DNA from: a phage
Reading direction: 5' to 3' (one strand)
DNA length: 64,000 bases
Assembly: GCA_011911785.1 (NCBI GenBank)
Contig: GCA_011911785.1_4084.1
In this document: piece after piece, positions 7,764 to 61,769 of the stretch
How the letters are laid out: every line of letters begins with the position of its first letter
Position numbering within the stretch: position 1 is the first letter of the stretch
Position numbers and translations under genes: made by a program
The notes under the pieces: generated by a model
The model's database searches: none
Seen by the model: only the letters and a program-made list of their open reading frames with translations
Told to the model about the DNA's origin: nothing

Positions 7764-7772
7764 ATTTAGGTG

Positions 7773-24499: not shown

Positions 24500-24536
24500 C
24501 TCTCGTCTTTTAATTAAACAAAAAGGTAAAATAAAA

Positions 24537-46323: not shown

Positions 46324-46353
46324 TTGACAGTACTGAAAATATAGGAGTACAAT
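46324..46353 (+). promoter_or_regulatory. sigma70-like promoter
   Basis: TTGACA, 18 nt, TACAAT. Confidence 0.5.
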
Positions 46354-46393
46354 GTACTCCTACTTTAATTGAAAACCAAAAAGGAAAAACACA

Positions 46394-49013: not shown

Positions 49014-49020
49014 AGAAAAA

Positions 49021-49047
49021 GGGTTGACTTAGGTCAGCCCTTTTTTT
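49021..49047 (+). terminator. intrinsic terminator (composite module type)
   Basis: GGGTTGAC-TTAG-GTCAGCCC hairpin followed by TTTTTTT; TTGACT hexamer in 5' arm. Confidence 0.7.
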
Positions 49048-49571
49048 ATGGGACAAAATGGATGTTCATGATACAATGATATTGTACAATTCTGTTGGCA
49101 TGGATGACATGAACCTGATCCACTCGAAAATGTAGAGGGCAGTTGAGCAGTCCAGCAGTGCGAAGTGCAGAAGAAACCCGTCAGATGTGGGCATATTATG
49201 AACCCCTCACGGCAATGCGGCACTATAAAGAACCACGTTAGGATGGCTGGTGGTTCCTCGATAGACATATAAGGATAACACCTTACGAATTATCTAAGGG
49301 AGAGTTATCAAATTTTGTACAGGAAAGTTGCGTCCAAAATTTGAGTACTCACATTAAGTATTTGATTGCATAGATACTTAATGAAGATACACTATGTTTA
49401 AAAGTGTAGACCGTCATATGAAACTGAAGTAGAGAGAAACAGGATGACCCGCTTTCGTACTCATTAAGAGTAATCTTCAATGCAATAGCTCTGATACCAT
49501 CAGCGTCAAATTCCCCTCCCAGCGGGGGGAAGAAAAATCCCTTCCTCAAATCCCGTCAATATTAAAAGTCC
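49048..49571 (+). ncRNA. GC-richer ORF-free island (candidate structured RNA or foreign insert)
   Basis: About 520 bp with no convincing ORF, visibly higher GC than surroundings, several G/C-rich potential stems. Confidence 0.3.
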
Positions 49572-49600
49572 TTGACAGTTATTAATCATTCGCGTAGAAT
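49572..49600 (+). promoter_or_regulatory. sigma70-like promoter
   Basis: TTGACA, 17 nt, TAGAAT. Confidence 0.6.
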
Positions 49601-49664
49601 ACGTAGTATTAGAAGCGAACAGACATCTCGAAGAGATGGATGACTAACTATTAAGGAACATTCA

Positions 49665-49874
49665 ATGAATACTACAATCTTTTTAATTGTTGCTCTTTCA
49701 ATGCAATCCGGTGTACAAATTACCCCTATGAATTCATTAAACCAATGTTTTTCTGTACGTGATAGTACATACGAACAAGTAAACAAAAATTCTTGGATGA
49801 CAGTTAGTGAAGAACAAATGTGGTGTTACAAAAGTGATATTAAAGCGAAATTTATTGTAGGACAAACTCAATGA
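49665..49874 (+). CDS. putative small secreted protein (69 aa)
   Basis: N-terminal signal-peptide-like segment. Confidence 0.45.
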   Translation: MNTTIFLIVALSMQSGVQITPMNSLNQCFSVRDSTYEQVNKNSWMTVSEEQMWCYKSDIKAKFIVGQTQ

Positions 49875-50065
49875 TTTATCGAGTGAGGTTTGAAGTTTGT
49901 AAAATTGTTTTCAATAGCAAAGGTGAAGCCTCACTCGATGAAACTCTGCACATATATAATCTCCAATTTAGGGCAAAAACAGAAGCTGATGCATTAGTAA
50001 ACATGTTTAATTTCAACCATAGGTGCGGGTATCATTTAGTAAGAGTTATAGAGGTTAAAAAGTAA
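49871..50065 (+). CDS. hypothetical protein (64 aa)
   Basis: ATGA overlap. Confidence 0.45.
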   Translation: MIYRVRFEVCKIVFNSKGEASLDETLHIYNLQFRAKTEADALVNMFNFNHRCGYHLVRVIEVKK

Positions 50066-50095
50066 TTACCGAATGCAGTGAAGAGGAAATCTAAA

Positions 50096-50890
50096 ATGAG
50101 TACTATCGATGAATTGATTCGACGGAATTCAAAATATTACCAACCATCAGAAATTGTGGATAATATTACTAAATCTGAGTTTGGACCTAATACTCGCAAA
50201 CTCATTCATGTAATGTCTCGTGACGGCTTTAAATGTGATTGTTGTGGTGAATCCAATGTAGTATTCACTTTACATAAGCACAGTACTAAAGAACGTTATA
50301 AATTCAGACCTTATGTACTTAAAGGGAAACGTCTTGTACGCATGACGTTAGACCATAATGTACTGGACTGTCTCCAGGGTGGTAATGATAAAGAAAACAT
50401 GACTGCACTGTGTGAGGATTGTAATGCCTTACGCCAGCATAAGTTCGCAGAGTACAGCGAGTTTAAGTACTGGTATCATAATGCAGACCGTTCAATTGAG
50501 CCTAATGTAAACTACTGCTTCATTGAGTACATCAAGAATGCAAAAGATACATACATTCTTAAATCCATGTCTCCGATTACAGTGTTTCCTGAGAATCTAT
50601 TCAGTACTATGGAGCGTGATTTTAAGCGTGGTATCATCAATGCATTCAAGCACTTAGACAAAGGTATCAAACACTTTGATGTTGAATGTTTAAATTCAGG
50701 TATGAATCGTTTAGTACAAATTTACATGAAATCGTTTATAGGTATTGACAGTGCACGACTACCAGTATATAATTACTTTATTGAAAGCGTAGAAGGTGAA
50801 TCACTTCGTGATTATGGTGAAAGATTTAATAAGAAAGTCTTCACTGCAATAGCAAATGAGATTCATTACTATAAACCATATGTAATTTAA
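50096..50890 (+). CDS. HNH endonuclease (possible homing endonuclease)
   Basis: Start refined to ATG 50096 (RBS gaggaaatctaaaATG); CDCCGE...LDHNVLD...GGND...N...LCEDCNALR. Confidence 0.6.
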   Translation: MSTIDELIRRNSKYYQPSEIVDNITKSEFGPNTRKLIHVMSRDGFKCDCCGESNVVFTLHKHSTKERYKFRPYVLKGKRLVRMTLDHNVLDCLQGGNDKENMTALCEDCNALRQHKFAEYSEFKYWYHNADRSIEPNVNYCFIEYIKNAKDTYILKSMSPITVFPENLFSTMERDFKRGIINAFKHLDKGIKHFDVECLNSGMNRLVQIYMKSFIGIDSARLPVYNYFIESVEGESLRDYGERFNKKVFTAIANEIHYYKPYVI

Positions 50891-50905
50891 TTAGAGGAAC
50901 TATCA

Positions 50906-51073
50906 TGCAAATCATTATCTTAATCGTTGGTATCGGTTTGGGCATCTATGGACATTCATGGGTAACTGAGAAGTTTCCTGACACCCGTCCAGATTACTGT
51001 ACAACTAAAACTGAAAGTACTGAAAGTATTGGAACTAAGATCGATAAAGTAATCGAGGTGATTAAACAATGAT
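50906..51073 (+). CDS. small membrane protein (55 aa)
   Basis: Untracked ORF, RBS ttagaggaactatcATG; hydrophobic N-terminus. Confidence 0.4.
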
Positions 51074-51150
51074 GAAACTTAATATATTTCTGGTTGTATT
51101 CACTGTCGTTGTTATCGGTATTGGTGCACTGGCATATATCCAACCTTAAA
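51070..51150 (+). CDS. possible hydrophobic micro-protein (26 aa)
   Basis: Untracked ORF MMKLNIFLVVFTVVVIGIGALAYIQP with ATGA overlap; speculative. Confidence 0.25.
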
Positions 51151-51160
51151 GGAAAAATAA

Positions 51161-51361
51161 ATGTTTAAATCGAATACAAATGTTGGTAAGCAGGTTCAAT
51201 TACTTGAAGACGTATCCACTATGAGTGGAACCTTCACTAAAGGTCACATCATGACTATTATTGCCGAAACATCCCGTGGCTGGGACTTGGAAGATGCTGA
51301 TGGTAATCGCATCCTTGAGGCTGGCTTCTATGGTCATCGTGAATATAAAATCATTGATTAA
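51161..51361 (+). CDS. hypothetical protein (66 aa)
   Basis: RBS aaaggaaaaataaATG. Confidence 0.5.
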   Translation: MFKSNTNVGKQVQLLEDVSTMSGTFTKGHIMTIIAETSRGWDLEDADGNRILEAGFYGHREYKIID

Positions 51362-51459
51362 GGATGCAAACGTGACTTTAGAGATTATCGTTGGTATTGT
51401 TAGTTTTATTCATCTGTGTTGGTTGGTTTGGGTATATGATGATTTTTAGTGATTAACAC

Positions 51460-51487
51460 TTGACAGAAGATATCAGTACTGTATAAT
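51460..51487 (+). promoter_or_regulatory. sigma70-like promoter (GTATAATGTTTAT class)
   Basis: TTGACA, 16 nt, TG-TATAAT; downstream GTTTATATCAAA box shared with 51808 and 62687. Confidence 0.65.
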
Positions 51488-51532
51488 GTTTATATCAAAC
51501 GAAATCCACTTTAACAAATGATAGGAAATATT

Positions 51533-51811
51533 ATGTCTTTTACCAAAGAAGAACGTGACCTTATTAAAAAAGCAATCTGGTTTTATGCTAATGAAGGGGA
51601 GTGCGATGAAGAAAAAGCACGTGAACTGTGTAATATCCTTGAGCAGAAACAAGAACTGAAAGTGTATCGTATCCGTGTTTTGGATGATGGGGATCGTATT
51701 GTCCTAGCTGAAACAAAAGAAGAAGCAGAACAAATCTTCACTGATAAAAACGAAAATCCACATTGGATGGAAGAAGTCTGTGAAGTAAAAAAAGGTACTT
51801 ATATCGATTGA
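51533..51811 (+). CDS. hypothetical protein (92 aa)
   Basis: Start refined to ATG 51533. Confidence 0.55.
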   Translation: MSFTKEERDLIKKAIWFYANEGECDEEKARELCNILEQKQELKVYRIRVLDDGDRIVLAETKEEAEQIFTDKNENPHWMEEVCEVKKGTYID

Positions 51812-51836
51812 CTGTACTGAATAATAGCAGTATAAT
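51808..51836 (+). promoter_or_regulatory. sigma70-like promoter (GTATAATGTTTAT class)
   Basis: TTGACT, 17 nt, TATAAT; followed by long hairpin GGGAATGCAGTGA...TCACTGCGTTCCC in the leader. Confidence 0.6.
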
Positions 51837-51929
51837 GTTTATATCAAAGGGAATGCAGTGAAAGGAAAGACAGCATAATCGTACTCGTCACTGCGTTCCC
51901 GCCCTTTTAAATTAAATGAGGAATTAACT

Positions 51930-52238
51930 ATGTTTCAAACTAACACTCAAGGTTTTGTAATCATCGATTTGAATCAAAACAGCGGTTATTGGATGAAACC
52001 TACTGACGCATGTATGCAGTTTGATTTTTTAGGTTACAGGATTAGTGTAAGTACTGGTGCTTCTGTACTGCGTGGTGGTTGTATCGTTGAACATCTGGTA
52101 ACTGATCCAGAAGGTCGTGAGTATGAAATCGCAGGTTCAGTACAAGATGCCATTATGTTTGTATGTCAGCGTGAAATGAATGGTTCGAATTCAAATGCAC
52201 TGACTCATGCTCTTTCTCAAGAAGTGGAGGTTCGTTAA
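51930..52238 (+). CDS. hypothetical protein (102 aa)
   Basis: RBS aaatgaggaattaactATG. Confidence 0.6.
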   Translation: MFQTNTQGFVIIDLNQNSGYWMKPTDACMQFDFLGYRISVSTGASVLRGGCIVEHLVTDPEGREYEIAGSVQDAIMFVCQREMNGSNSNALTHALSQEVEVR

Positions 52239-52483
52239 TGAAATATATTGTAGCAGTACTCGTCGCATTTTTACTCACTGCATGTGATGCTTCAACCAAA
52301 GAACGAACTAGTGAGTTTGTTTTACCAACTGAACTCAAAGAAGCAGGGTGTAAGATTTATCGTATGCAACAAGACGGTGCTGGTGCATCTTTGTACACTG
52401 TGTACTGTCGTAATGCAAACACTACTACGTCTTATATGAGTGGTAAAGTTCGCGTGGATACATCTGTGGTTCATGGAGAATAA
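52238..52483 (+). CDS. putative lipoprotein (81 aa)
   Basis: Signal peptide with lipobox-like LLTAC. Confidence 0.55.
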   Translation: MKYIVAVLVAFLLTACDASTKERTSEFVLPTELKEAGCKIYRMQQDGAGASLYTVYCRNANTTTSYMSGKVRVDTSVVHGE

Positions 52484-52485
52484 CA

Positions 52486-52854
52486 ATGAGTCTTGATACT
52501 ACTCGTTCGGCAAATATCTTAAAACGTTTGAATGACGAAGAATATCTAGCTAATACACGATATCAGCTTGAAAAACTCAGTCGAAATGTAAAATATATTG
52601 ATATCACTACACAGCTTCCACTGGATGAATATCACAAGTTAAACGAAGATATTGTATATCACCCAAATGAAATTTGGATTGAGTGGGAATCATGGACCCA
52701 CTCGGTTCTCCGTATCGAGGGCTATTGTGTGAAATATGAAAGTTCACTAGGTGATTTTACAAAAAAACTGTCGATATTGTGCACTGACACACATGAAATA
52801 GTTGAGGTGAATTTGAATCATATGAAGGGTTGCCGTTGGGGAGATCTTAAATGA
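52486..52854 (+). CDS. hypothetical protein (122 aa)
   Basis: ORF. Confidence 0.5.
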   Translation: MSLDTTRSANILKRLNDEEYLANTRYQLEKLSRNVKYIDITTQLPLDEYHKLNEDIVYHPNEIWIEWESWTHSVLRIEGYCVKYESSLGDFTKKLSILCTDTHEIVEVNLNHMKGCRWGDLK

Positions 52855-53126
52855 TTAAAAAACTATTGACTGTGTTTGTTGTATTCTGTACAATGTTTCT
52901 TACAGCATGTAATGATGACGGCAGGTTAAGTGCAAAAGACTTAGCTCGATATGATTGTACATTCACAGGTAAGTCTTTTATTAACGAGTATGAGGTATGC
53001 ACACAATCAGGTCGTATCTGTGGTGGTTGGGAGAAACGTCAGGAGCGATTGTATGTATATGAATGTCCTGGGCAACTCAACAAAGTAATAAGTACTCACA
53101 AACTTGTTTATGATAAGGTTGAATAA
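52851..53126 (+). CDS. putative lipoprotein (91 aa)
   Basis: Signal peptide with lipobox-like FLTAC. Confidence 0.55.
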   Translation: MIKKLLTVFVVFCTMFLTACNDDGRLSAKDLARYDCTFTGKSFINEYEVCTQSGRICGGWEKRQERLYVYECPGQLNKVISTHKLVYDKVE

Positions 53127-53335
53127 TGACTACCAATGAAATGATGCAGGTTATCTGGAATAAAGGTTGTGATCTTAAAATCACTAGTACTGATGTTCGT
53201 GTATTCAAAACTGAATACATGGAATACTTGGACCTTGATACTTATAATAATATTGTATCAATTGAACACAAAGGTGCAGTACTGGAAACAATTGACGTTG
53301 TTCTCAAGAAAGCAACGGATTTATTGGGAGCATAA
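53126..53335 (+). CDS. hypothetical protein (69 aa)
   Basis: ATGA overlap. Confidence 0.5.
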   Translation: MTTNEMMQVIWNKGCDLKITSTDVRVFKTEYMEYLDLDTYNNIVSIEHKGAVLETIDVVLKKATDLLGA

Positions 53336-53336
53336 G

Positions 53337-53483
53337 GTGAACAATAAAGAATGGGAAGAGTACCGCAAGAAGTGCCGAGAGTTTGATAAAGAACTCACTG
53401 GTACTGTGAACGCAGTAATGTGGGTATCTGCAATAATTGCAGTACTGGGACTGTTTGCAGTTATCATTAATAAGTTTTTTTGA
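53337..53483 (+). CDS. small membrane-anchored protein (48 aa)
   Basis: GTG start; C-terminal hydrophobic helix; replaces tracked 53169..53483 extension. Confidence 0.4.
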   Translation: MNNKEWEEYRKKCREFDKELTGTVNAVMWVSAIIAVLGLFAVIINKFF

Positions 53484-53492
53484 GGAATACAC

Positions 53493-53693
53493 ATGTTTAC
53501 TTTATATCTAGCCGTAGTACTAACAAATGGTGAAATCACACGTACATTAGGTGACGGTGTATATAAAACACCTGAGCAGTGTTATTCTGCGACACACTGG
53601 CCTCGTGATGCTGGTGAAGAAACTCGTACCGAATACAAATGTATGAAGGTCAAAGGTGACTTTGTTAACCTTAAGGTCATTGAGGTGAAGTAG
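53493..53693 (+). CDS. putative small secreted protein (66 aa)
   Basis: N-terminal hydrophobic segment. Confidence 0.5.
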   Translation: MFTLYLAVVLTNGEITRTLGDGVYKTPEQCYSATHWPRDAGEETRTEYKCMKVKGDFVNLKVIEVK

Positions 53694-54199
53694 TGAATCT
53701 TAGTACTGATAAGTTTGTAAAGTTCATAGAGTTTATCAACTTCAATGAGAGCTACAATGGTACGTACAATACTATGAATATTGTATCTGATAAAGTATTT
53801 GATAGTACAATGTTCTATTTGTATGATACAAACGGTGATAAGCTGTGTGATGTTACATTCGGTATTGGTGATCTTTTTGAATCTGCGGTTTATCTATCTA
53901 AACCAACGGTGCGTGATACATATGAAATTCACTTTCATAATAGACCGAATCACAAAAACATTGTAGAATATGATATACCATCATCACACGAACTGTTCAT
54001 TGTAGATTACAGTACTGAAGAGGGTGTATTTCAAAGTTCATTGCTATACAACTTTGAACTACACGATCCTGATATTCCTAAAGTACTGGCAATTTCCAAT
54101 AAGGTATGTGAATTGCCATATAACATATACATGTCAGTTCCTGGTAAAAGAGTAGGTAATTTCTGTAAAGCCTTTGACATACAAGCGGATGATAAATGA
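53693..54199 (+). CDS. EEYFQ-motif family protein (family A)
   Basis: GTG start; C-terminal STEEGVFQSSLLYNFELHDPDIPKVL. Confidence 0.55.
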   Translation: MNLSTDKFVKFIEFINFNESYNGTYNTMNIVSDKVFDSTMFYLYDTNGDKLCDVTFGIGDLFESAVYLSKPTVRDTYEIHFHNRPNHKNIVEYDIPSSHELFIVDYSTEEGVFQSSLLYNFELHDPDIPKVLAISNKVCELPYNIYMSVPGKRVGNFCKAFDIQADDK

Positions 54200-54420
54200 A
54201 CAGATACGTGATTGAATACGTGGGTATATCTGAATTTGATAACATTCGTGGCTATGAAAAGGTCATGAGTGAACGCACGATATATGTTAGGGGTCGCGAT
54301 GAAGCCCATGTTCTCTCTTTACTGTTAAATGACCTGACAAAGTTCAATACAACAAAGACACAACGTTATATTGAAACAATTAAATCTATTAAACTTTTAG
54401 ACGAGGATGATGAAGAATGA
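54196..54420 (+). CDS. hypothetical protein (74 aa)
   Basis: ATGA overlap. Confidence 0.5.
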   Translation: MNRYVIEYVGISEFDNIRGYEKVMSERTIYVRGRDEAHVLSLLLNDLTKFNTTKTQRYIETIKSIKLLDEDDEE

Positions 54421-54629
54421 ATTTATATCTAGTAGAAGGTACAGTGCAGGTTTTCCGTTTTGATGGTGATCGTGGTATGCGTTTCTCACATGTTGAAGAA
54501 TTTAAATTTGTCGTACATGCAGAAGGTGAGTACGAAGCAGAGATTAAAGTATCTGAATCCTTTGATAAGAAAGAAACAGTAGATGTACAGTATCAGCAAC
54601 TACAATTTAAAGTGTGGCCTACGCTTTAA
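54417..54629 (+). CDS. hypothetical protein (70 aa)
   Basis: ATGA overlap. Confidence 0.5.
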   Translation: MNLYLVEGTVQVFRFDGDRGMRFSHVEEFKFVVHAEGEYEAEIKVSESFDKKETVDVQYQQLQFKVWPTL

Positions 54630-54633
54630 AAAC

Positions 54634-54662
54634 TTGACACGCATGTAAAAAGCGAGTATTAT
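54634..54662 (+). promoter_or_regulatory. sigma70-like promoter
   Basis: TTGACA, 17 nt, TATTAT. Confidence 0.55.
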
Positions 54663-54693
54663 ATCTGTATTATGAATTAACTGAGGAATACGT

Positions 54694-55359
54694 ATGCTCG
54701 CCAATTTAAGTTACATTATTAGTGATGATATGGTACAAAGTCGTGGTATGTATCTTGAGAAAGTTCCATACGATAGCGATGGTATCAAAGGAACTTTATA
54801 CGAAAGTCGTTTTGACAGAAAGCATCCATTCTGGGAAAAGGCTAATCTAACGGAAGAAGATAGTAATCGTTTATTTTGTGCTGTGCAGACGCCTACACCT
54901 GGTATATTAGCGGGTTATGGTATAGATAAAGTCATTAACTTTATGACAGACTATGAAGTTATTAAAAGTCTGCAATATATTAATACGAACAATGGTGAGT
55001 TCTATAATTCTGATGATTTTCTTGCTATGTGTAGTGCTTCATATGAGAGTGAATTATTGCCAAGTGGTAGACCATTCCCATTGTCAACACATTGTAATTC
55101 CCCTTACGGTGTAGCTGACAACTTACAGCAGATCCTTAAGAAACATAAGAATGTTCTTACATCTGAAATGGAAGTTGTTATTGGATTTCATCCAGTGTAC
55201 AAGGAAGATCAACCTGAACATGGTGGGTGGCGTTGGCATAAGCACGGCACATACATTGGTACTCATAAGAAAAAGCATGAGTACTTGTATGATGAAGAAG
55301 GTATTGATGTTGTTTATTGTTACGAACTAATCCCAGTAAAGAAAAAGGAAACACTATAA
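54694..55359 (+). CDS. hypothetical protein (221 aa)
   Basis: RBS aactgaggaatacgtATG. Confidence 0.6.
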   Translation: MLANLSYIISDDMVQSRGMYLEKVPYDSDGIKGTLYESRFDRKHPFWEKANLTEEDSNRLFCAVQTPTPGILAGYGIDKVINFMTDYEVIKSLQYINTNNGEFYNSDDFLAMCSASYESELLPSGRPFPLSTHCNSPYGVADNLQQILKKHKNVLTSEMEVVIGFHPVYKEDQPEHGGWRWHKHGTYIGTHKKKHEYLYDEEGIDVVYCYELIPVKKKETL

Positions 55360-55601: not shown

Positions 55602-55610
55602 ACCTATAAT
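55582..55610 (+). promoter_or_regulatory. sigma70-like promoter
   Basis: TTGACA, 17 nt, TATAAT. Confidence 0.6.
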
Positions 55611-55633
55611 ATCCTTCTACTAAGGGGGATATT

Positions 55634-55894
55634 ATGGCAGTAGGGTTTGGTTCACCAGATAACCACCAAGAAACGATACAAGCAACTATTGATAATGCTA
55701 TTGACTTTGCTCGCTCAAATCTGTATAGTGGTGAGTCTGAAGAGTACTGCATCGACTGTGACTGTGAGATACCAGAGAAGCGGAGGTTAGTACTGAAGGG
55801 TGTAAAACGATGTGTTCAGTGTCAATCAAAGGTTGACAAGGTATATCAAGAGCGTTATAATAGACGTGGAAGTAAAGACAGCCAACTCCGTTAA
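55634..55894 (+). CDS. TraR/DksA-family C4 zinc-finger protein
   Basis: CIDCDCEIPEKRRLVLKGVKRCVQCQ matches the C4 finger pattern of TraR/DksA proteins. Confidence 0.55.
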   Translation: MAVGFGSPDNHQETIQATIDNAIDFARSNLYSGESEEYCIDCDCEIPEKRRLVLKGVKRCVQCQSKVDKVYQERYNRRGSKDSQLR

Positions 55895-55914
55895 ATTAAT
55901 ATGAGGAACTACTA

Positions 55915-56247
55915 ATGTTATCATTTATTCTTTCTATCCCTTGTTTTGTTCTTCTTTTTGTATTACTTTTTGAAGCATTCCAGAAAGATGAAGAAGTTAA
56001 AAATGACCTACGTAAACTATTCAATCTGGATAGTCCAGTAGTTGGGATCTTTTATGTTTTAGTATGTGTGTATGCTGTTGTGTGGCTATTGGGCTTTTTA
56101 TTACCACTATCTACTGTACTTGCATGGATTTCCGTTGTTGAAAATTTAGTAGCTATTGTATGGTTTATTCAATGTTTGTTTAGTGGTTTGGTTTCTGATT
56201 GGATTTTCTTACTTAAAGTGAAGTTTAAATCAAAATCTGATAAGTAA
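55915..56247 (+). CDS. multi-pass membrane protein (110 aa)
   Basis: RBS atgaggaactactaATG; hydrophobic helices. Confidence 0.55.
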   Translation: MLSFILSIPCFVLLFVLLFEAFQKDEEVKNDLRKLFNLDSPVVGIFYVLVCVYAVVWLLGFLLPLSTVLAWISVVENLVAIVWFIQCLFSGLVSDWIFLLKVKFKSKSDK

Positions 56248-56293
56248 TAACCAAGTACTCATATAAAATACAGAATAGTATTAAATACTTGTG

Positions 56294-56331
56294 TACTAGT
56301 TAAGTACGCAAGTATTTTTTTATTATTTTGA
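56294..56331 (+). terminator. intrinsic terminator
   Basis: AATACTTG...CAAGTATT hairpin followed by TTTTTTT. Confidence 0.6.
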
Positions 56332-56338
56332 GGTTAAT

Positions 56339-56704
56339 ATGGGAAAGCTTACAATTATAATAGCCATGATAATGGCACTTAATGTTATGCCAGTTGAAGC
56401 TAACGAGGACGTTGCGTGGTTCGATTGCATAGGAAATGATGGACAGTGGCATACGTTTTCCAGTGATCCATATAATGGTACTGATATACTAATAGATGGT
56501 GAAAATTATCGTTTTGTTAGTGAAAGTAAAATTGGCAACAAAAAGGTATCGACATTTAGAACTGATTCTGGTATAATTGCTAATGTCATACTGATAGTTG
56601 ATCCTGAAAATAATACAGGGGATATATATGTAGTGGTTTACCGTGATCATTCCAATAAAAGAAGTCTGGATCTTGATAAACTTCATTTACATTGTCAAAT
56701 ATAA
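56339..56704 (+). CDS. putative secreted protein (121 aa)
   Basis: N-terminal signal-peptide-like segment. Confidence 0.55.
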   Translation: MGKLTIIIAMIMALNVMPVEANEDVAWFDCIGNDGQWHTFSSDPYNGTDILIDGENYRFVSESKIGNKKVSTFRTDSGIIANVILIVDPENNTGDIYVVVYRDHSNKRSLDLDKLHLHCQI

Positions 56705-56718
56705 TTTAAGGTAAATCT

Positions 56719-57093
56719 ATGTTCAATAGTATCATTGGGTTCTCATTAGTACTTCCACAAATCATTTTTGGTATTTGTTTTGTAACTTTTATGATGGGGT
56801 CAATCTATGGTATATGGTATTACATTTTAAAACAATCAGATGGAATCATTTTAAAAATAACAATGCATTTTGATGTGGATTCACCAGCATGGAATTCATC
56901 TATTATTACCAATACATTGTATTTTATGATGATCATTTTGGAACAATTGGGATTTGTATCTAATAGTAATGTTTCTATGACCGCAGGTATGGCAAGTATT
57001 TGTTGTTTGTGGTATATTGTTTATAAGATTGATGTGTTGTATAATATGTATCGTGAAATGGTATTGAACAGAGATATGCAGAGGAAAAAATGA
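56719..57093 (+). CDS. multi-pass membrane protein (124 aa)
   Basis: Hydrophobic helices. Confidence 0.55.
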   Translation: MFNSIIGFSLVLPQIIFGICFVTFMMGSIYGIWYYILKQSDGIILKITMHFDVDSPAWNSSIITNTLYFMMIILEQLGFVSNSNVSMTAGMASICCLWYIVYKIDVLYNMYREMVLNRDMQRKK

Positions 57094-57443
57094 TGAAAGT
57101 TATATTATTTTTTATGTGTATTATTATGTGTGGTGTCTCTTATGCTGCACCCTTAGCCGGATTGCTTTGTAAAGAGAATTCTGAACAACACATATTCCAA
57201 GGGGATTCAGATGACCTTGATATCATTTACATCGATGGTACTGAATATACATACGTTAAAGACCATACTGTTGGTGATATCAGTTTCACTGAATATGCAA
57301 AAACAGGTGACACTGATTATAGAGCCTACCTTCAAGTGAATATGATAGAGGGTGAAGACGGAACACAAGAAGTCAAACTCGTACTTAAACGTATTGGAGA
57401 TAAGGAGGCTGATTTTGGAGGTGAGTGTACATATGATGATTGA
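57090..57443 (+). CDS. putative secreted protein (117 aa)
   Basis: N-terminal signal-peptide-like segment; ATGA overlap. Confidence 0.55.
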   Translation: MMKVILFFMCIIMCGVSYAAPLAGLLCKENSEQHIFQGDSDDLDIIYIDGTEYTYVKDHTVGDISFTEYAKTGDTDYRAYLQVNMIEGEDGTQEVKLVLKRIGDKEADFGGECTYDD

Positions 57444-57450
57444 TTAAAAA

Positions 57451-57476
57451 AGGTTGACTAACGTCAGCCTTTTTTG
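57451..57476 (+). terminator. intrinsic terminator (composite module type)
   Basis: AGGTTGAC-TAAC-GTCAGCCT hairpin then TTTTT; TTGACT in 5' arm; weak -10-like TTATAC 17 nt downstream. Confidence 0.7.
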
Positions 57477-57513
57477 TTATACTTATTCCATATTAATTGA
57501 ATAGGTGCACATC

Positions 57514-57954
57514 ATGATTGTATATCGTTTTGAACTGAAATTCAGCTATATTGAACCAAATCTGGAACCAGCCAAAACGGTAGGTCCATTCGCACGATAT
57601 TCATCACGATACAGTACTGCCAATGGTTTCGACCGTCTGCGTATGACCACACCTACACAATTTCAACCAGAACCCACCGACGATGGAATTTATTCTATAA
57701 AGCGTGGCTGGGCATTTGGATGCCAAAGTTTAAACGACCTGTTCAGATTCTTTACAATGGACTTAGGTAAACTTCATCGTTCAGGATTTTCTGTTTTTGT
57801 GTATGAAGTTCCTGATAACCATGTAGACATTGGACATAACCAAGTGCAGTACTATTGTGGTAGTGCAAAACTACTTCGTATTATGTCAGTAAAGGAAGCT
57901 AAAGAAGAATTTCGTGCCACAAGATTTAATAAGGAAGAGATGGTATATGGATAA
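57514..57954 (+). CDS. hypothetical protein (146 aa)
   Basis: Start refined to ATG 57514 (RBS aggtgcacatcATG). Confidence 0.55.
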   Translation: MIVYRFELKFSYIEPNLEPAKTVGPFARYSSRYSTANGFDRLRMTTPTQFQPEPTDDGIYSIKRGWAFGCQSLNDLFRFFTMDLGKLHRSGFSVFVYEVPDNHVDIGHNQVQYYCGSAKLLRIMSVKEAKEEFRATRFNKEEMVYG

Positions 57955-58303
57955 AACATCAACACGATTTGCAAAGTTCTTGAGTTATGAGATACCACAA
58001 GATCCGTATTTCGACCAACGTGACGATGAAGATTACATAAAGTTAACTCGTGAACTACGAAACAAGTTCCAACAGATTTTAAGTTCATACACTAATACAC
58101 ATCCACATTTAAAGTACTTCATTAAGGCAGATATAGATTCAGATGATTCTGAACTATCATTCCTTGAATACACAGTGGAGTGTGTTGGGTATGTACCCGA
58201 TAATAGTGTAATTAATCACAACAAAATAAAGTTCGACTTGTACGCTATTTGTGTTATAATGAATATAATTGCACAAATGAACAACTATTCAATAGGGGAT
58301 TAA
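57947..58303 (+). CDS. hypothetical protein (118 aa)
   Basis: Start refined to ATG 57947. Confidence 0.5.
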   Translation: MDKTSTRFAKFLSYEIPQDPYFDQRDDEDYIKLTRELRNKFQQILSSYTNTHPHLKYFIKADIDSDDSELSFLEYTVECVGYVPDNSVINHNKIKFDLYAICVIMNIIAQMNNYSIGD

Positions 58304-58567
58304 ATGAAACTGAAATTGAACTATCATGGTTTTCGTCTGCGTGATGATGTGGAGTTCCTTCGTCGCACACCAGGTGCTGAGATGTTTTTAACTGAAATGG
58401 GTGTCCCATTTAAAGTCGAGCACATTGGTGACAATGACTGCCTGGTATATGATAATCAACCGGATATCAACGTTCCGTGGTATTCTGAACATATGTACAT
58501 TGATATGGCGGCTCGCTACAACTGTACGTTCGAAATTACATCTAAAGGTATTGCTATTCAATTCTAA
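58304..58567 (+). CDS. hypothetical protein (87 aa)
   Basis: ORF. Confidence 0.5.
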   Translation: MKLKLNYHGFRLRDDVEFLRRTPGAEMFLTEMGVPFKVEHIGDNDCLVYDNQPDINVPWYSEHMYIDMAARYNCTFEITSKGIAIQF

Positions 58568-58588
58568 TAGTCTGATGGACACGAGTAA

Positions 58589-58813
58589 ATGAAATACATG
58601 CTGGTGGCATTAATGTTTGTGAGCACGATAGTACAAGCCAGAATCAAGTACTTTGTGAAGTGTACAAACGTTAGCGGTGGCTACACAGAGACATATCAGG
58701 GTAAGTCGGTTAAGATGGCAATACACAATGATAGAGGAACAGTGATTTTCCTTGTGAATGATATAATCATTTTGTACAAACCAGATGTACCATGTGAAGT
58801 AAAAAGATATTAA
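58589..58813 (+). CDS. putative small secreted protein (74 aa)
   Basis: N-terminal signal-peptide-like segment. Confidence 0.5.
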   Translation: MKYMLVALMFVSTIVQARIKYFVKCTNVSGGYTETYQGKSVKMAIHNDRGTVIFLVNDIIILYKPDVPCEVKRY

Positions 58814-58818
58814 ACTAC

Positions 58819-58850
58819 GGGGTTGGCATAAGTCAGCCCTTTTGTATAAT
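58819..58850 (+). promoter_or_regulatory. composite terminator-promoter module
   Basis: Hairpin GGGGTTGGC-ATAA-GTCAGCCC then TTTTG; TTGGCA in 5' arm, 16 nt, TATAAT. Confidence 0.6.
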
Positions 58851-58858
58851 GGTGACTT

Positions 58859-59437
58859 ATGAACCGTAAAGGTAAGTTTAAAGTATCAAAGAAGAATAAA
58901 AGTGGAAGGTTCAATGATATATGCTTAGGTTTTATCAAAGCACACAATAAACTTTCTGCCCTGAGTAGAAAGATAGTATCTAACAAGATTGATATTAGAT
59001 ATATAAGTACTAACAATAGTACAGGGAAAGATGCACATCCAACTGAAAATATTATTTCAGTATCCTTCGTATACGATGGTCTGGACATTACGATAGATGA
59101 TTACAGACGATACGGTACTGGGTTTATACGTATCTATTGCAGAGATGCATCTGATAAGCCGGAACGTATTCGTATTATCGGTACATTGAGTGCTGGTATA
59201 TTTGAGTGGGAGATTGTTCAACTTAAAACTATCGATGAGTACACCACAAGTTCTAATATTATTGAGTTGAATTGTAATGTGAAAGACCTCCCAAACTTGA
59301 GCGAAGAAGAATATTTTCAAGAAAGCTTGCTAACGCCAAATTTGGATGATATAATTAAACAATATAAGACAATGGTGTACTTCTTCAAATGTATCAAACC
59401 TAAGACTTGTTTGATGAATATTGTCCGTGATCTATAA
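58859..59437 (+). CDS. EEYFQ-motif family protein (family A)
   Basis: C-terminal SEEEYFQESLLTPNLDDIIKQYKTM. Confidence 0.6.
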   Translation: MNRKGKFKVSKKNKSGRFNDICLGFIKAHNKLSALSRKIVSNKIDIRYISTNNSTGKDAHPTENIISVSFVYDGLDITIDDYRRYGTGFIRIYCRDASDKPERIRIIGTLSAGIFEWEIVQLKTIDEYTTSSNIIELNCNVKDLPNLSEEEYFQESLLTPNLDDIIKQYKTMVYFFKCIKPKTCLMNIVRDL

Positions 59438-59448
59438 CAGGAAAAACT

Positions 59449-59880
59449 ATGTGGGTTAACGTTAATAGTACTGAACTTAATGAAATTGATATCTTTGCAT
59501 TTGTTAATCTGGAAACTGATACCTTTGTTCGTGGACGTTTGTTCATGAGTTCTGCCTGTGTTCGCAGTATTGCAGTTATGGATGAACTCGGTCAGGTAAT
59601 TGAGTGCCTACCATTACCTGCATGGGCATATAGCAGTACTGAAGAAGATGTAATGCATAAGATCTTTGAAGGGATCAATAAGCTACCAGGTGCAGATGTG
59701 AAGAATAAGATATTCAACATTGAGAATAAGAACTACAGTGCAGATGTACTGCGTCCTTTAGTTGATTCAGTACTGCAAGCTGCATTAGCTAAACCTAAGT
59801 GCATTATTTTAAAGTACATTCCAGAACTTTCCCTAACTAAAGAGGATATGAAAGGATTTATATTCTCATCGGAGTTGTGA
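59449..59880 (+). CDS. hypothetical protein (143 aa)
   Basis: ORF. Confidence 0.55.
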   Translation: MWVNVNSTELNEIDIFAFVNLETDTFVRGRLFMSSACVRSIAVMDELGQVIECLPLPAWAYSSTEEDVMHKIFEGINKLPGADVKNKIFNIENKNYSADVLRPLVDSVLQAALAKPKCIILKYIPELSLTKEDMKGFIFSSEL

Positions 59881-60104
59881 TGAAAAGGTATAAAATTGAA
59901 TACCTACTTAAAGTAAGAGAGAAAAGTATTAGTAGTGAGAAATACACCAGTGAGATATTCGTCAGAGATGAGTATTACATTGGTGAAAATGAAGTTGAAG
60001 TACTGTTACAATGCATAGAAAATGAATTTCGAGATATGACACGTTATATGTCATTTGAGATATCGTGTGCAAAAGTTACATTCTTGAACAATACTTCATA
60101 TTAA
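59877..60104 (+). CDS. hypothetical protein (75 aa)
   Basis: ATGA overlap. Confidence 0.5.
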   Translation: MMKRYKIEYLLKVREKSISSEKYTSEIFVRDEYYIGENEVEVLLQCIENEFRDMTRYMSFEISCAKVTFLNNTSY

Positions 60105-60108
60105 AAAA

Positions 60109-60140
60109 GGGTTGACTTTTGTTGACCCTTTTTGCTATTC
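60109..60140 (+). promoter_or_regulatory. composite terminator-promoter module
   Basis: Hairpin GGGTTGAC-TTTT-GTTGACCC then TTTTT; TTGACT in 5' arm; TATTCT/TATAAA -10 candidates. Confidence 0.6.
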
Positions 60141-60187
60141 TATAAATATGACATAGAGGTAACATTTAATAATCTATGGAGAAAAAA

Positions 60188-61726
60188 ATGCCAGATAATT
60201 TTAAATCAAAAAGTGGGGCAACACTTTCTGGACATTCGGAGAAATGGGCTGAAAAAAATCGTCGCCAATCAAGTCATGACGCAGGTCAAGGTTCCCGTGG
60301 CTCTCGCAACCAAGGAACGGGAGAAGCGGGGAAAGCAAACACAGTTGCATCACAGGGTCTTGATACTTCAAACATGTCCCAGCATGAAAAATTGAAGTAC
60401 TTCAATAGTCTTGGTCTTTTAAATCCGCAGCAGAAGCAACAACTTGCTGCTCTGGATAAAGCACAAGAACAACCTAAAGCAGCACCTGAAGCACCTGCAC
60501 AGCCTAAAGCGGCTAATCCGGTAAAAGAACTAAGTGATAAACTTGGGAAGATCTTTGCTAACAAACCACAACTAATTCAAGGTATCGTAAAAGCACTTCA
60601 AGCGGTTCCTAAAGAACAACTCAAGGATAAAGCACAAGCTGTTCTTGATAGTATGAAAGGGAATACCAGTACTGAACCAACTGAAGTATTCAGTACTATC
60701 ATGCGTGCACTTGAAGGTAAGCCACAGGCTGATGATGATATTGAGTTTGATGAACCTGCACAAGAAGTAGCAAATCTTGACTCAATCGTTTCTACATTTG
60801 GAAAAATTGGTGCAGAAGATAAGACTAATGCACAACAAGTTAAGAATGTACAAGCTAAGTTACAAAATCGTCTTGAAGGTAAAGATGAAAAGATTAAACT
60901 TGCAGCAGATGCGTTGAAGAAAGCATTAGAATCATATAAACCTGGTGAGAAATCTCGCTTCATTACTGCAATGAATGCAGTATTCGGTGCAATGAAGAAG
61001 TATGAAGCTGAACACGGTGAGAAAGTAACTCCTGATGGATATCTCCTTCGCAAAGATGAAGAAGGTGCTGTTGACCAGAAGAACGCTGAACCAGACTATA
61101 GTGATTTACCGGATACAGTTGATATGGATGGATACATTCATCGTCCTGATATGCAAGAATTTGGTTCAGACAAAGAAGGTTTTGAACATGCTATGGCTGT
61201 GTACAAAGCATTAGTCGATAATCCACAATATGCAAATAGTTTTGTAGATGAGTTTGATAGTGCATGGAACAACTACCAAGACAAAGGATATGATTTCCCA
61301 GCAGAAGCAGCATTCTTTGAACTAGGTAAACTTCTTGCTAAAAATGGTATTAATGTTGGTTCTAATGGTGAAGCAAACACTTCGGAAATGGACGCTGAAT
61401 TGGCTAAAGATCGTAAAATGACTGATAAGTCAATTCATGAACTACAAAAGCTAATGATGTGGATTGCTGAAATTGGCAAGAAAGCTGGTGCAGATCCTAA
61501 GAGCATTAACAGCAATATTAGTTGGATTAAACATAAGGTTGATAACAATGCCCGTAAATTACAAAAGGCATGGACCGACCTAGTGAATGGTGCAGACGAT
61601 GTTGATATCGATTCACCAGAAGCATACGAGTACGCATTGAACACACTTGATAACTCTTTCCAGGATTACGAAAATGGTAACGTAACTGATTGGGAAAAGG
61701 ATATCATGCATAAGTACGGTAAATGA
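60188..61726 (+). CDS. large low-complexity K/E/A/Q-rich protein (about 512 aa)
   Basis: Start taken as ATG 60188 (RBS ggagaaaaaaATG); Gly/Ser/Gln-rich N-terminus, PKAAPEAPAQPKAANP repeat-like stretch; locally higher GC. Confidence 0.6.
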   Translation: MPDNFKSKSGATLSGHSEKWAEKNRRQSSHDAGQGSRGSRNQGTGEAGKANTVASQGLDTSNMSQHEKLKYFNSLGLLNPQQKQQLAALDKAQEQPKAAPEAPAQPKAANPVKELSDKLGKIFANKPQLIQGIVKALQAVPKEQLKDKAQAVLDSMKGNTSTEPTEVFSTIMRALEGKPQADDDIEFDEPAQEVANLDSIVSTFGKIGAEDKTNAQQVKNVQAKLQNRLEGKDEKIKLAADALKKALESYKPGEKSRFITAMNAVFGAMKKYEAEHGEKVTPDGYLLRKDEEGAVDQKNAEPDYSDLPDTVDMDGYIHRPDMQEFGSDKEGFEHAMAVYKALVDNPQYANSFVDEFDSAWNNYQDKGYDFPAEAAFFELGKLLAKNGINVGSNGEANTSEMDAELAKDRKMTDKSIHELQKLMMWIAEIGKKAGADPKSINSNISWIKHKVDNNARKLQKAWTDLVNGADDVDIDSPEAYEYALNTLDNSFQDYENGNVTDWEKDIMHKYGK

Positions 61727-61735
61727 TAAAAAAAG

Positions 61736-61769
61736 AGGTTGACTTCGGTCAGCCTTTTTTGCTATAATA
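61736..61769 (+). promoter_or_regulatory. composite terminator-promoter module
   Basis: Hairpin AGGTTGAC-TTCG-GTCAGCCT then TTTTTT; TTGACT in 5' arm; TATAAT at 61764..61769. Confidence 0.65.

What the first reader, a model, noticed from the sequence alone, without database searches (positions are those of the whole stretch)
49021..61769. Composite terminator-promoter modules with the -35 hexamer inside the terminator stem
Five intergenic sites (49021, 57451, 58819, 60109, 61736) share the architecture A-run, GGTTGAC(T), loop, GTCAGCC, T-run, -10-like hexamer. The 5' arm of the terminator hairpin carries a TTGAC(T) -35 element and a -10-like hexamer follows the T-tract at promoter spacing (16-19 nt); it is a clear TATAAT at 58845 and 61764 but weak at 49047 and 57477. 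One about 45-bp element could therefore both terminate the upstream gene and restart transcription.
Basis: seen in the sequence. Interest (0 to 1): 0.6.

Follow-up and report, generated by a model that had tools for sequence, protein, structure and literature searches.

The report
Combined terminator-promoter cassettes in jumbo phage
Five short intergenic hairpins in this giant E. coli phage are real transcription terminators, and four of them also carry a start signal for the next gene; this design is already known from T4-like phages as "PeSL" cassettes, so this is a new example of a known kind.

Summary
Five + strand sites share the stem GGTTGAC/GTCAGCC, against 0.08 expected by chance. Each lies just after a stop codon and folds at -14 to -21 kcal/mol.

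The window comes from an Asteriusvirus jumbo coliphage, 97.7% identical to phage A4.

The dual terminator/promoter reading is supported for four sites:
- 57452, 58821 and 61737 have good sigma-70 signals.
- 60110 has a weaker -10 that abuts TATAAATA, a T4-late-type promoter, ahead of a virion protein gene.
- 49022 is a terminator only. No orthologue has a -10 there, and the stem shows a compensatory A-U to G-C change.

Among 41 copies of the same motif in other phages, 36 have a -10 at spacer 17-18, often with TGn. Their loops are often UUCG or GAAA.

The design matches the PeSLs (promoter-early stem-loops) of T4-like phages (Arbiol 2010, Comeau 2014). In Vibrio phage nt-1 PeSLs the -35 also sits in the 5' arm. 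The KP27 GenBank record annotates an overlapping terminator and promoter at such a site, and the CBB paper lists the same sequences as terminators.

As with PeSLs, the modules border gene-cassette indels between relatives.

Verdict: real, correctly interpreted, a new member of a known kind. No transcript data exist for this phage.

The parts
49014..49047 (+). Module 1. It consists of an A-run, the hairpin GGGTTGAC-TTAG-GTCAGCCC and a run of seven T, 1 nt after the stop codon of the phage sigma-factor gene (48051-49013). TTGACT lies at 49024-49029 but there is no usable -10 (TATGGG). It is a terminator only.
   Evidence: The fold is -21 kcal/mol, z = -6.95. Orthologues in 8 Asteriusviruses are 100% paired with one compensatory A-U to G-C change. 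The G17 GenBank record annotates a terminator here. The sigma factor is identified by PHROG.
57445..57483 (+). Module 2. The hairpin spans 57445-57476 (core GGTTGAC-TAAC-GTCAGCC). The -35 is TTGACT at 57454-57459, the spacer is 18 nt, and the extended -10 is TGtTATACT with the hexamer at 57478-57483. It follows ORF 57090-57443 and precedes the gene starting at ATG 57514 (SD AGGTG).
   Evidence: The window's single copy aligns to both modules flanking a 355-bp cassette in phage A4.
58819..58850 (+). Module 3. The hairpin is GGGGTTGGC-ATAA-GTCAGCCCT with no A-run and only four U. The -35 is TTGGCA at 58823-58828 (TTGACA in A4), the spacer is 16 nt, and the -10 is TATAAT at 58845-58850. It lies between ORF 58589-58813 and ORF 58859-59437.
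   Evidence: -14.4 kcal/mol, z = -3.2. PBECO4 has the same two genes 7 nt apart with no module, so the module is an indel between conserved genes. ATG 58859 is conserved.
60104..60148 (+). Module 4. The hairpin is GGGTTGAC-TTTT-GTTGACCC with two G.U pairs. The -35 is TTGACT at 60112-60117, the spacer is 18 nt, and the -10 region is TGcTATTCT with the hexamer at 60136-60141. This overlaps by one base TATAAATA at 60141-60148, a T4-late-type promoter. The module precedes the virion structural protein gene 60176-61726.
   Evidence: TATAAATA occurs once in 64 kb against 10.1 expected. The PBECO4 orthologue has the same module followed by TATAAATA.
61731..61768 (+). Module 5. The hairpin core is GGTTGAC-TTCG-GTCAGCC with a UUCG tetraloop. 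The -35 is TTGACT at 61739-61744, the spacer is 18 nt, and the extended -10 is TGcTATAAT with the hexamer at 61763-61768. An SD (AAGGAG) and ATG 61796 follow.
   Evidence: (11 of 12 matches plus TG).
10176..10212 (+). Related composite of another geometry. TTGACA-17-TATAAT has the hairpin 10187-10212 overlapping the -10. This corresponds to the PeSL subclass in which the stem-loop overlaps the -10.
   Evidence: Arbiol 2010 describes the subclasses.
24470..24505 (+). Related composite. TTGACA-17-GATAAT has the hairpin 24482-24505 lying between the -35 and -10 and overlapping the -10.
46324..46362 (+). Related composite. TTGACA-18-TACAAT has the -10 inside the loop of hairpin 46342-46362.
7733..7801 (+). 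Related composite. The terminator hairpin 7733-7760 lies just upstream of the promoter TTGACA-17-TAGAAT, whose -35 starts at 7773.

Best explanation
The five elements are PeSL-type regulatory cassettes in the early, variable region of an Asteriusvirus jumbo coliphage.

As RNA, read from an upstream promoter, each element forms a G+C-rich hairpin followed by a U-tract. This releases host RNA polymerase a few bases before the -10 (intrinsic termination).

As DNA, four of the five carry a sigma-70 promoter built from the same bases:
- The A-run acts as an UP-like element.
- TTGAC(T/A) in the 5' arm is the -35.
- The 3' arm and the T-run form the 16-18 nt spacer.
- A TGn-extended -10 follows.

The new transcript starts about 7 nt after the -10, downstream of the hairpin, so it does not terminate itself. 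Each small gene or gene group therefore becomes an insulated unit with its own stop and start.

Site by site:
- Site 1 (49022) has lost or never had the -10 and is a plain terminator.
- Site 4 (60110) hands over mainly to a late promoter, TATAAATA.
- Sites 2, 3 and 5 are the sigma-70 promoter candidates.

Because the roughly 40-nt modules are near-identical repeats in one orientation, they probably also serve as homology islands. Recombination between them would insert, delete or swap gene cassettes.

Shown here: sequence, folds, statistics, comparative conservation, and cassette indels bounded by modules. Inferred: actual termination, initiation by host sigma-70, and recombination at the modules.
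For: 1. The motif is non-random and the hairpins are stable and strand-specific.

2. The -10 is specific to the modules. It is present at 4 of 5 modules against 1 of 20 other terminators (base rate 11.7%, P = 8.5e-4).

3. Copies elsewhere keep the promoter features. In IMG/VR, 41 unique A-run/T-run-flanked copies of GGTTGAC-N4-GTCAGCC were found. They include contigs whose lengths match RaK2 (345,809 bp), KVP40 (244,834 bp) and GAP32 (358,663 bp). Of the 41, 36 have a good -10 at spacer 17-18 and 21 have TGn. An A is favoured about 7 nt after the -10, and an SD plus ATG follows 20-40 nt later.

4. The loops are enriched in the stable RNA tetraloops UUCG (13 of 41) and GAAA (4 of 41). This points to selection on the RNA hairpin.

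5. Site-1 orthologues keep 100% pairing through a compensatory A-U to G-C change.

6. A 47-nt module query hits 315 phage records, with 8-11 places per Asteriusvirus genome. Seven A4 copies lie within 18.8 kb and eight PBECO4 copies within 13 kb.

7. nt-1 PeSLs have the same build, for example AAAAGGGTTGCACTATGCAGCCCTTTTTAGTATTAT. Arbiol 2010 states that the stem-loops may overlap the -35 or -10, and showed terminator and promoter activity by lacZ fusions. Comeau 2014 is the second source.

8. The KP27 GenBank record annotates an overlapping terminator and promoter on such an element. G17 annotates site 1 as a terminator. The CBB paper lists GGGTTGACTTCGGTCAGCCC... as terminators.

9. Cassette indels lie next to modules. 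A4 has a 355-bp two-gene cassette flanked by two modules where the window has one module. PBECO4 lacks module 3 between two conserved genes. Several window-PBECO4 alignment blocks start at module edges: 57446, 58857 and 60103.
Against: - There are no transcript 5' or 3' end data for this phage or any Asteriusvirus. Literature searches and the genome papers read turned up none.
- Site 1 has no -10. One PBECO4 copy (L124:33484) also lacks a good -10. The hairpin can therefore exist without the promoter.
- At site 3 the -10 ends 8 nt before the conserved ATG. The SD-like GGTGA would be absent from a transcript started there. Its U-tract is only four U, so both of its functions may be weak.
- The window's site-3 -35 is TTGGCA. 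This substitution keeps the hairpin (G.U pair) and weakens the -35.
- The window-versus-A4 junction is not a clean recombinant, because the leader after the -10 differs from both A4 copies.
- The phage encodes its own sigma-70-family factor, so the polymerase holoenzyme that uses these promoters is not established.
Confidence: 0.72

Rival explanations
1. The elements are plain intrinsic terminators. They share a stem because they are copies of one another, and the TTGAC and the downstream TATAAT-like hexamers are incidental.
For: - Site 1 and PBECO4 copy L124:33484 have the hairpin without a usable -10.
- Site-1 orthologues change the stem in a way that keeps pairing but departs from TTGAC.
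- The CBB and G17 annotators listed such elements only as terminators.
- T-runs followed by AT-rich leaders raise the chance of -10-like hexamers.
Against: - A good -10 sits at the right spacing at 4 of 5 modules, against 1 of 20 other terminators in the same window.
- In other phages 36 of 41 copies have it, and 21 also have TGn.
- An A is preferred at the expected start position, and an SD plus ATG follows at 20-40 nt.
- PeSLs of the same build drove lacZ expression in RB49/phi1.
Confidence: 0.14
2. The promoters in the modules are real, but they are read by the phage-encoded sigma-70-family factor (gene 48051-49013) as a middle class rather than by host sigma-70 as early promoters.
For: - The phage encodes an RpoD-like sigma factor directly upstream of module 1.
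- The module promoters differ slightly from the many hairpin-free TTGACA-17-TATAAT promoters in the window. They have TTGACT, an 18-nt spacer and TGn.
Against: - The same modules occur in T4-like phages such as nt-1 and KP27. I did not check whether those phages encode an RpoD-like factor.
- The -35, -10 and TGn elements are canonical for host sigma-70.
- RB49/phi1 PeSLs were active in uninfected E. coli.
Confidence: 0.1
3. The inverted repeats are DNA operators for a dimeric phage or host regulator, not RNA hairpins.
For: The repeat is a near-palindrome, GTTGAC-N4-GTCAGC, repeated at several intergenic sites.
Against: - The arms are not palindromic as DNA but pair as RNA through G.U.
- The opposite strand folds markedly worse.
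- The loops vary and are enriched for UUCG and GNRA tetraloops.
- The outer stem covaries (GGG/CCC in the window, CCC/GGG in KP27), and site 1 shows a compensatory change.
- Every copy is followed by a U-tract and lies directly after a stop codon.
Confidence: 0.03

Closest known systems
PeSLs (promoter-early stem-loops) of T4-like phages: RB49/phi1 (Arbiol et al. 2010, PMC2839356); PST/T4 and nt-1/KVP40 (Comeau et al. 2014, PMC4122927)
   Same: - Both combine a sigma-70-like early promoter with a terminator stem-loop, an AT-rich upstream stretch, and an SD and start codon at the 3' end.
- Both are intergenic, lie among small genes of unknown function in variable regions, and occur as many similar copies in one orientation.
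- Both are associated with cassette indels.
- The published subclasses include stem-loops that overlap the -35 or the -10.
- nt-1 PeSLs read here have the -35 in the 5' arm, a T-run spacer and then the -10, exactly as in the window.
- The module motif itself gives BLAST hits in nt-1 (7 places) and in other Vibrio and Aeromonas phage records. It also occurs in an IMG/VR contig of KVP40's genome length.
   Different: - The host phage is an Asteriusvirus (RaK2-like jumbo group), not a member of Straboviridae.
- I found no paper describing PeSLs in this group.
- Promoter and terminator activity and mini-circle formation were shown experimentally for RB49/phi1 but not here.
- The -35 consensus here is TTGACT/A, against TTGYVH in nt-1/KVP40.
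Terminators and RpoD-like promoters catalogued in the RaK2-like jumbo phage CBB (Buttimer et al. 2017, PMC5259590), and GenBank features of KP27, G17 and Munch
   Same: - Identical core sequences are listed as rho-independent terminators in CBB, for example GGGTTGACTTCGGTCAGCCCTTTTTTGTATAA.
- CBB's RpoD-like promoters, preceded by UP-like A-tracts, cluster in the early region of short hypothetical genes.
- KP27 annotates a terminator and a promoter overlapping on one such element.
   Different: In the text and supplement passages I searched, these sources list the two functions separately and do not discuss a composite element or a role in recombination.
Morons of lambdoid phages (single genes flanked by their own promoter and terminator)
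   Same: Both are self-contained transcription units inserted between conserved genes.
   Different: Moron regulatory sequences are not conserved repeats and are not thought to drive mobility (discussion in Arbiol 2010). Here the promoter and terminator are fused into one repeated 40-nt module.

Membership tests
PeSL (promoter-early stem-loop cassette) | A sigma-70-like -35 and -10 pair at about 17-nt spacing | tested here: met
   Sites 2, 3 and 5 match 10-11 of 12 consensus positions. Site 4 has a 4-of-6 -10 with TGn. Site 1 fails, which resembles the degraded 'half' PeSL with an intact -35 and stem-loop but no -10 (Comeau 2014, Fig. 5 legend).
PeSL (promoter-early stem-loop cassette) | A stable stem-loop adjacent to or overlapping the promoter and able to terminate transcription | tested here: met
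   The hairpins fold at -14.4 to -21 kcal/mol and are followed by 4-7 U. Overlap with the -35 is one of the published subclasses. Termination itself was not measured.
PeSL (promoter-early stem-loop cassette) | An AT-rich stretch upstream of the -35, and an SD and start codon downstream | tested here: met
   A-runs are present at 4 of 5 sites. An SD plus ATG lies 26-31 nt after the -10 at sites 2, 4 and 5. At site 3 the ATG is only 8 nt after the -10.
PeSL (promoter-early stem-loop cassette) | Multiple similar copies clustered in hyperplastic regions among small genes of unknown function | tested here: met
   - The window has five copies in 12.7 kb, A4 has seven in 18.8 kb and PBECO4 has eight in 13 kb.
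- Window 53.7-62 kb matches only A4 at megablast level among 49 related records.
- The neighbouring genes have no known function, apart from one virion protein.
PeSL (promoter-early stem-loop cassette) | Association with insertion, deletion or replacement of the flanked genes between close relatives | tested here: met
   - A4 has an extra 355-bp cassette (A4_205 and A4_206) bounded by two modules, where the window has one module.
- Module 3 is present in the window and A4 and absent in PBECO4, between the same two genes.
- This rests on few events, and the junction is not a clean recombinant.
PeSL (promoter-early stem-loop cassette) | Demonstrated promoter and terminator activity, and mini-circle formation by recombination between copies | not testable with these tools
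   These need reporter fusions, transcript-end mapping and inverse PCR, as done for RB49/phi1.
Intrinsic (rho-independent) terminator | A G+C-rich hairpin immediately followed by a U-tract, at the 3' end of a gene and on the transcribed strand | tested here: met
   All five sites lie 1-8 nt after stop codons. Site-1 orthologues show a compensatory change. Site 3 has only four U.
T4-type late promoter (TATAAATA) | The exact octamer upstream of a late (virion) gene | tested here: met
   - The single occurrence in 64 kb, at 60141-60148, compares with 10.1 +/- 3.1 expected.
- It lies 28 nt before the virion structural protein gene.
- The arrangement is conserved in PBECO4 and A4.
- A related late motif, ATAAATA, is reported for the RaK2-like phages CBB and GAP32.

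The most novel reading that the evidence does not exclude
The roughly 40-nt module may be more than a design that arose repeatedly. It may be a regulatory cassette exchanged across phage families.

It is found in Straboviridae genera (nt-1, KP27), RaK2-like jumbo phages, phages of about 150 kb infecting Pectobacterium, Enterobacter and Vibrio, 50-kb Yersinia phages, and even a Brochothrix phage. Some copies in PBECO4, KP27, nt-1 and a contig of KVP40's length share not only the hairpin, -35 and -10 but also the first transcribed bases (ATCGAAAC); a RaK2-length contig carries the close variant ATCCAAACGAAAC.

In jumbo phages it would then drive cassette shuffling as PeSLs are proposed to do in T4-like phages.

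A further speculative layer concerns the overlap of release site and promoter. This overlap could exploit 'recycling termination', in which E. coli RNA polymerase stays on the DNA after releasing RNA and re-initiates at the nearest promoter (PMC11347151).
Probability: 0.25. Interest if true: 0.55.

Novelty: new member of a known kind. Interest (0 to 1): 0.3.

Why it matters
- It gives a concrete transcription map for an unannotated early region of a 350-kb phage: where units end and restart, and which genes are insulated.
- It extends PeSL-type cassettes from T4-like phages to the RaK2-like jumbo group. This offers a mechanism for the high gene turnover seen between otherwise close Asteriusviruses.
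- The modules are compact parts of about 40 bp that combine a terminator and a promoter. They could be useful for phage engineering and synthetic biology.
- The finding does not change current understanding of transcription.

Tried and rejected
- Rfam at gathering thresholds on the whole window found only six tRNAs. The evalue scan of 48950-49700 gave only weak matches, far below each family's gathering score, several of them at the module-1 hairpin. No known RNA family explains the modules or the ORF-free stretch after module 1.
- The search for related loci with the sigma-factor protein returned no confirmed relatives in IMG/VR. A conserved 19-mer found only one contig, of 348,532 bp, the length of the 121Q record. 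Orthologues of site 1 were therefore fetched one by one from GenBank phage records.
- A literature search for the motif as a text string was uninformative, with 11,594 papers matching short strings. The KVP40 genome paper (PMC180978) is not held.
- I considered that the conserved G.U wobble (the first T of TTGAC opposite G) is a universal rule, perhaps to avoid an antisense -35. This is rejected as universal. The fully palindromic GGTTGAC-N4-GTCAACC also forms composite modules in many other phage contigs and in two site-1 orthologues.
- A protein-operator reading was rejected, as set out under the rival explanations.
- The window-versus-A4 junction at module 2 was examined as a possible clean recombinant. 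The leader after the -10 differs from both A4 copies, so only 'an indel bounded by modules' is claimed.

Full report
**Origin of the window.** Window 49000-62000 is 97.7% identical over 96% of its length to Escherichia phage A4, an Asteriusvirus of 355.5 kb. About 48 other Asteriusvirus and related records align at megablast level only to roughly 49000-53700. The stretch holding four of the five sites (53.7-62 kb) is therefore a variable region within the genus. All annotated genes there are on the + strand. Most are short and of unknown function.

**The observation.**
- A degenerate pattern, GGTTGRC-N4-GTYRRCC, finds exactly these five + strand sites in 64 kb. Shuffles give 0.08 on average.
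- Each site begins 1-8 nt after a stop codon.
- As RNA they fold into hairpins of -14.4 to -21 kcal/mol (z = -3.2 to -7.0). The opposite strand folds at -4.7 to -13.4 kcal/mol, because the G.U pairs become C/A mismatches.
- The window has about 20 other + strand terminator-like hairpins, and their stems are unrelated to one another. The shared stem is thus specific to this cluster.

**Are they also promoters?**
- The window is full of + strand consensus sigma-70 promoters: 67 on the + strand against 11 on the - strand at 10 or more of 12 matches, many of them perfect TTGACA-17-TATAAT. Promoters of this type clearly drive this region.
- Taking the last five bases of the 5' arm plus the first loop base as the -35, four of the five modules have a good -10 at spacer 16-18. 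These are TGtTATACT, TATAAT, TGcTATTCT and TGcTATAAT.
- Only 1 of 20 other terminators has such a -10 at the equivalent offset. The base rate is 11.7%, giving P = 8.5e-4.
- Site 1 has TATGGG, which is not a -10.

**Comparative evidence.**
- Of 132 usable instances, 41 unique ones have the A-run and T-run flanks. They come from contigs whose lengths match RaK2 (five copies in 7 kb), KVP40 and GAP32, from other jumbo phages and from phages of about 110-120 kb.
- Among these 41, 36 have a good -10 and 36 have a spacer of 17 or 18. The commonest hexamers are TATTAT, TATAAT, TATATT and TATTCT, and 21 are preceded by TGn.
- The instances without A-run/T-run flanks, mostly in G+C-rich contexts, have a -10 in 12 of 91 cases.
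- The loops are UUCG in 13 and GAAA in 4 of the 41. These are stable RNA tetraloops.
- When copies are aligned on the -10, an A is favoured at the seventh base downstream, and an SD plus ATG usually follows 20-40 nt later.
- The element therefore shows selection both as an RNA hairpin and as a DNA promoter.
- A 47-nt module query finds 315 phage records: Klebsiella 117, Vibrio 55, Escherichia 37, Yersinia 21, Aeromonas 17 and others. There are 8-11 places per Asteriusvirus genome.

**Site 1 is different.**
- Orthologues after the sigma-factor gene in eight Asteriusviruses have either GGGTTGAC/GTCA(G/A)CCC or GGTTGGC/GCCAACC.
- All core pairs are kept (40 of 40 cells). One pair switches between A-U and G-C, four sequences against four.
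- None has a -10 after the T-run.
- All have a separate extended -10, TGATAYAAT, about 30 nt downstream (window 49069-49077). This precedes about 500 nt without a convincing ORF.
- The G17 GenBank record annotates a terminator here.
- Site 1 is therefore a conserved terminator whose stem merely resembles the module.

**Site 4 has a late promoter.**
- Its weak -10, TATTCT, overlaps by one base TATAAATA at 60141-60148.
- That octamer occurs once in the window against 10.1 +/- 3.1 expected.
- It sits 28 nt before the only virion structural gene in the region.
- PBECO4 and A4 have the same arrangement.
- A T4-like late motif is reported for the related phages CBB and GAP32.

**Site 3 is marginal.**
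- In PBECO4 the two flanking genes are homologous to those in the window but only 7 nt apart, with no module.
- In the window and A4 a 45-nt module fills the gap, and the conserved ATG (MNRKG...) starts 8 nt after the -10.
- A transcript started there would be leaderless or nearly so. The SD-like GGTGA would be present only on read-through RNA.
- The window copy has TTGGCA where A4 has TTGACA. This change keeps the hairpin through a G.U pair and weakens the -35.
- Its U-tract has only four U.

**Modules and gene turnover.**
- Relative to A4, the window lacks a 355-bp segment carrying two small genes, A4_205 and A4_206.
- In A4 that segment is bounded by two modules. The single window module aligns to both, with a 48-nt overlap of the two BLAST blocks.
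- The leader after the -10 differs from both A4 copies, so this is not a clean crossover product.
- Against PBECO4, alignment blocks start at 57446, 58857 and 60103, which are module edges. PBECO4 carries extra genes next to its own modules.
- Seven A4 copies and eight PBECO4 copies lie within 13-19 kb.

**Comparison with known systems.**
- Arbiol et al. 2010 defined PeSLs in RB49/phi1 as strong sigma-70-like promoters joined to stem-loops that terminate transcription. They are concentrated in hyperplastic regions.
- Those authors distinguished five subclasses by position of the stem-loop, including overlap with the -35 or the -10. They showed both activities with lacZ fusions, and showed mini-circles formed by recombination between copies.
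- Comeau et al. 2014 extended PeSLs to PST/T4 and nt-1/KVP40. For nt-1/KVP40 the stem-loop consensus is A3-4 G3-loop-C3 T3-4 and the promoter is TTGYVH-N17-TAWWAT.
- I read the PeSL-rich nt-1 segment directly. AAAAGGGTTGCACTATGCAGCCCTTTTTAGTATTAT and AAAAGGGTTGCTTCGGCAGCCCTTTTTTGTTATTCT have the -35 in the 5' arm, the T-run as spacer and then the -10. This is the same build as in the window.
- KP27's record annotates an overlapping terminator and promoter on GCCCTTGACTTCGGTCAGGGGC. There the outer stem is inverted relative to the window (CCC/GGG against GGG/CCC), while TTGAC/GTCAG is kept.
- The CBB paper lists GGGTTGACTTCGGTCAGCCC... as terminators. Separately it lists hairpin-containing promoters such as AAAAAGGAGTTGACAACAGTTGGCTCCTTTGCTATACT.
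- The window also holds the other PeSL geometries:
  - hairpin over the -10 at 10176-10212, 24470-24505 and 46324-46362;
  - hairpin just upstream of the -35 at 7733-7801.
- I found no paper describing PeSL-type elements in Asteriusvirus or other RaK2-like phages.

**Mechanism.**
- Shown: the sequence features, their statistics, the folds, conservation of both layers, and the module-bounded indels.
- Inferred from established knowledge of intrinsic termination and sigma-70 promoters, and from the RB49/phi1 experiments:
  - polymerase coming from upstream terminates in the U-tract, just before the -10;
  - a new polymerase binds the same DNA, using the A-run, the TTGAC in the 5' arm and the TGn-extended -10;
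  - it starts about 7 nt after the -10, downstream of the hairpin.
- Stopping incoming polymerases before they cross the -10 would also protect the promoter from occlusion.
- Which sigma factor is used, host or phage-encoded, is not established. Host sigma-70 is more parsimonious, because RB49/phi1 PeSLs drove lacZ in uninfected E. coli and the same modules occur in T4-like phages such as nt-1 and KP27.
- A speculative addition is that E. coli polymerase can stay on the DNA after hairpin-dependent RNA release and re-initiate nearby (PMC11347151). An overlapping promoter would be the nearest possible.

**Verdict.** The element belongs to a known class. This is a new member of a known kind in a phage group where it had not been described, of modest interest.

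Noticed in passing
window 49050-49570: About 500 nt downstream of module 1 has no convincing ORF; the + strand ORFs there are at most 35 aa. It is preceded by a conserved extended -10 promoter, TGATACAAT at 49069-49077 (TGATATAAT in PBECO4, G17 and 121Q). A conserved block, TGTACAATTCTGTTGGCATG, follows. A strong promoter at 49572 (TTGACA-17-TAGAAT) then precedes the next gene. There is no credible Rfam match. This may be a phage non-coding RNA.
   Followed up: partly
window 50078-50890: This is an HNH endonuclease ORF of 270 aa (PHROG E = 1e-148), homologous to PBECO4 gp353. Phage A4 lacks 520 bp of it (window 50116-50635), with about 10 bp of overlap between the two alignment blocks at the junction. 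A perfect TTGACA-17-TATAAT lies inside the ORF at 50745.
   Followed up: partly
window 60141-60148: TATAAATA occurs only once in 64 kb, against about 10 expected from shuffles. This suggests strong avoidance of the late-promoter octamer in the early region. The single copy precedes a virion structural protein gene (60176-61726) embedded among early-type genes.
   Followed up: partly
window 32476, 32885, 33409, 42296, 51460, 51808, 62687: There is a second family of + strand promoters with a conserved spacer and start region: TTGACN, about 9 nt, (C)AGTACTG, TATAAT, GTTTAT(A)TCAA. Several lie beside the tRNA cluster, which has six tRNAs at 31777-35216.
   Followed up: no
window 36754-36810: The promoter-like TTGACT-17-TATACT is followed within 2 nt by a strong terminator hairpin (36784-36810, -15.7 kcal/mol). 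A transcript from it would be about 30 nt or would be attenuated.
   Followed up: no
L124:38771 (PBECO4), L123 (KP27), L122 (nt-1), L016:6094, L013, L054: The first transcribed bases after the -10 are often (A)CATCGAAAC in modules from unrelated phages: PBECO4, KP27, nt-1, a contig of KVP40's length and uncultured contigs. A RaK2-length contig (L052) has the variant CATCCAAACGAAAC. ATCGAAAC occurs in 8 of 98 modules, against about 0.02 expected by chance on my rough estimate. This means either shared ancestry of whole cassettes or a constraint on the 5' leader.
   Followed up: partly
IMG/VR loci L125-L243: The fully palindromic variant GGTTGAC-N4-GTCAACC also forms A-run/T-run composites. They often have a GAAA loop and a TATATT -10, and occur in many AT-rich phage contigs of unknown hosts. 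The design with the -35 inside the stem is therefore much wider than enterobacterial and Vibrio phages.
   Followed up: partly
window 48051-49013 and 51518-51811: The first ORF is a phage-encoded RpoD-like sigma factor of 320 aa. The A4 record annotates the counterpart of the second, short ORF as a sigma-70 family protein. Their promoter specificity is unknown, and it bears on which holoenzyme reads the modules.
   Followed up: no
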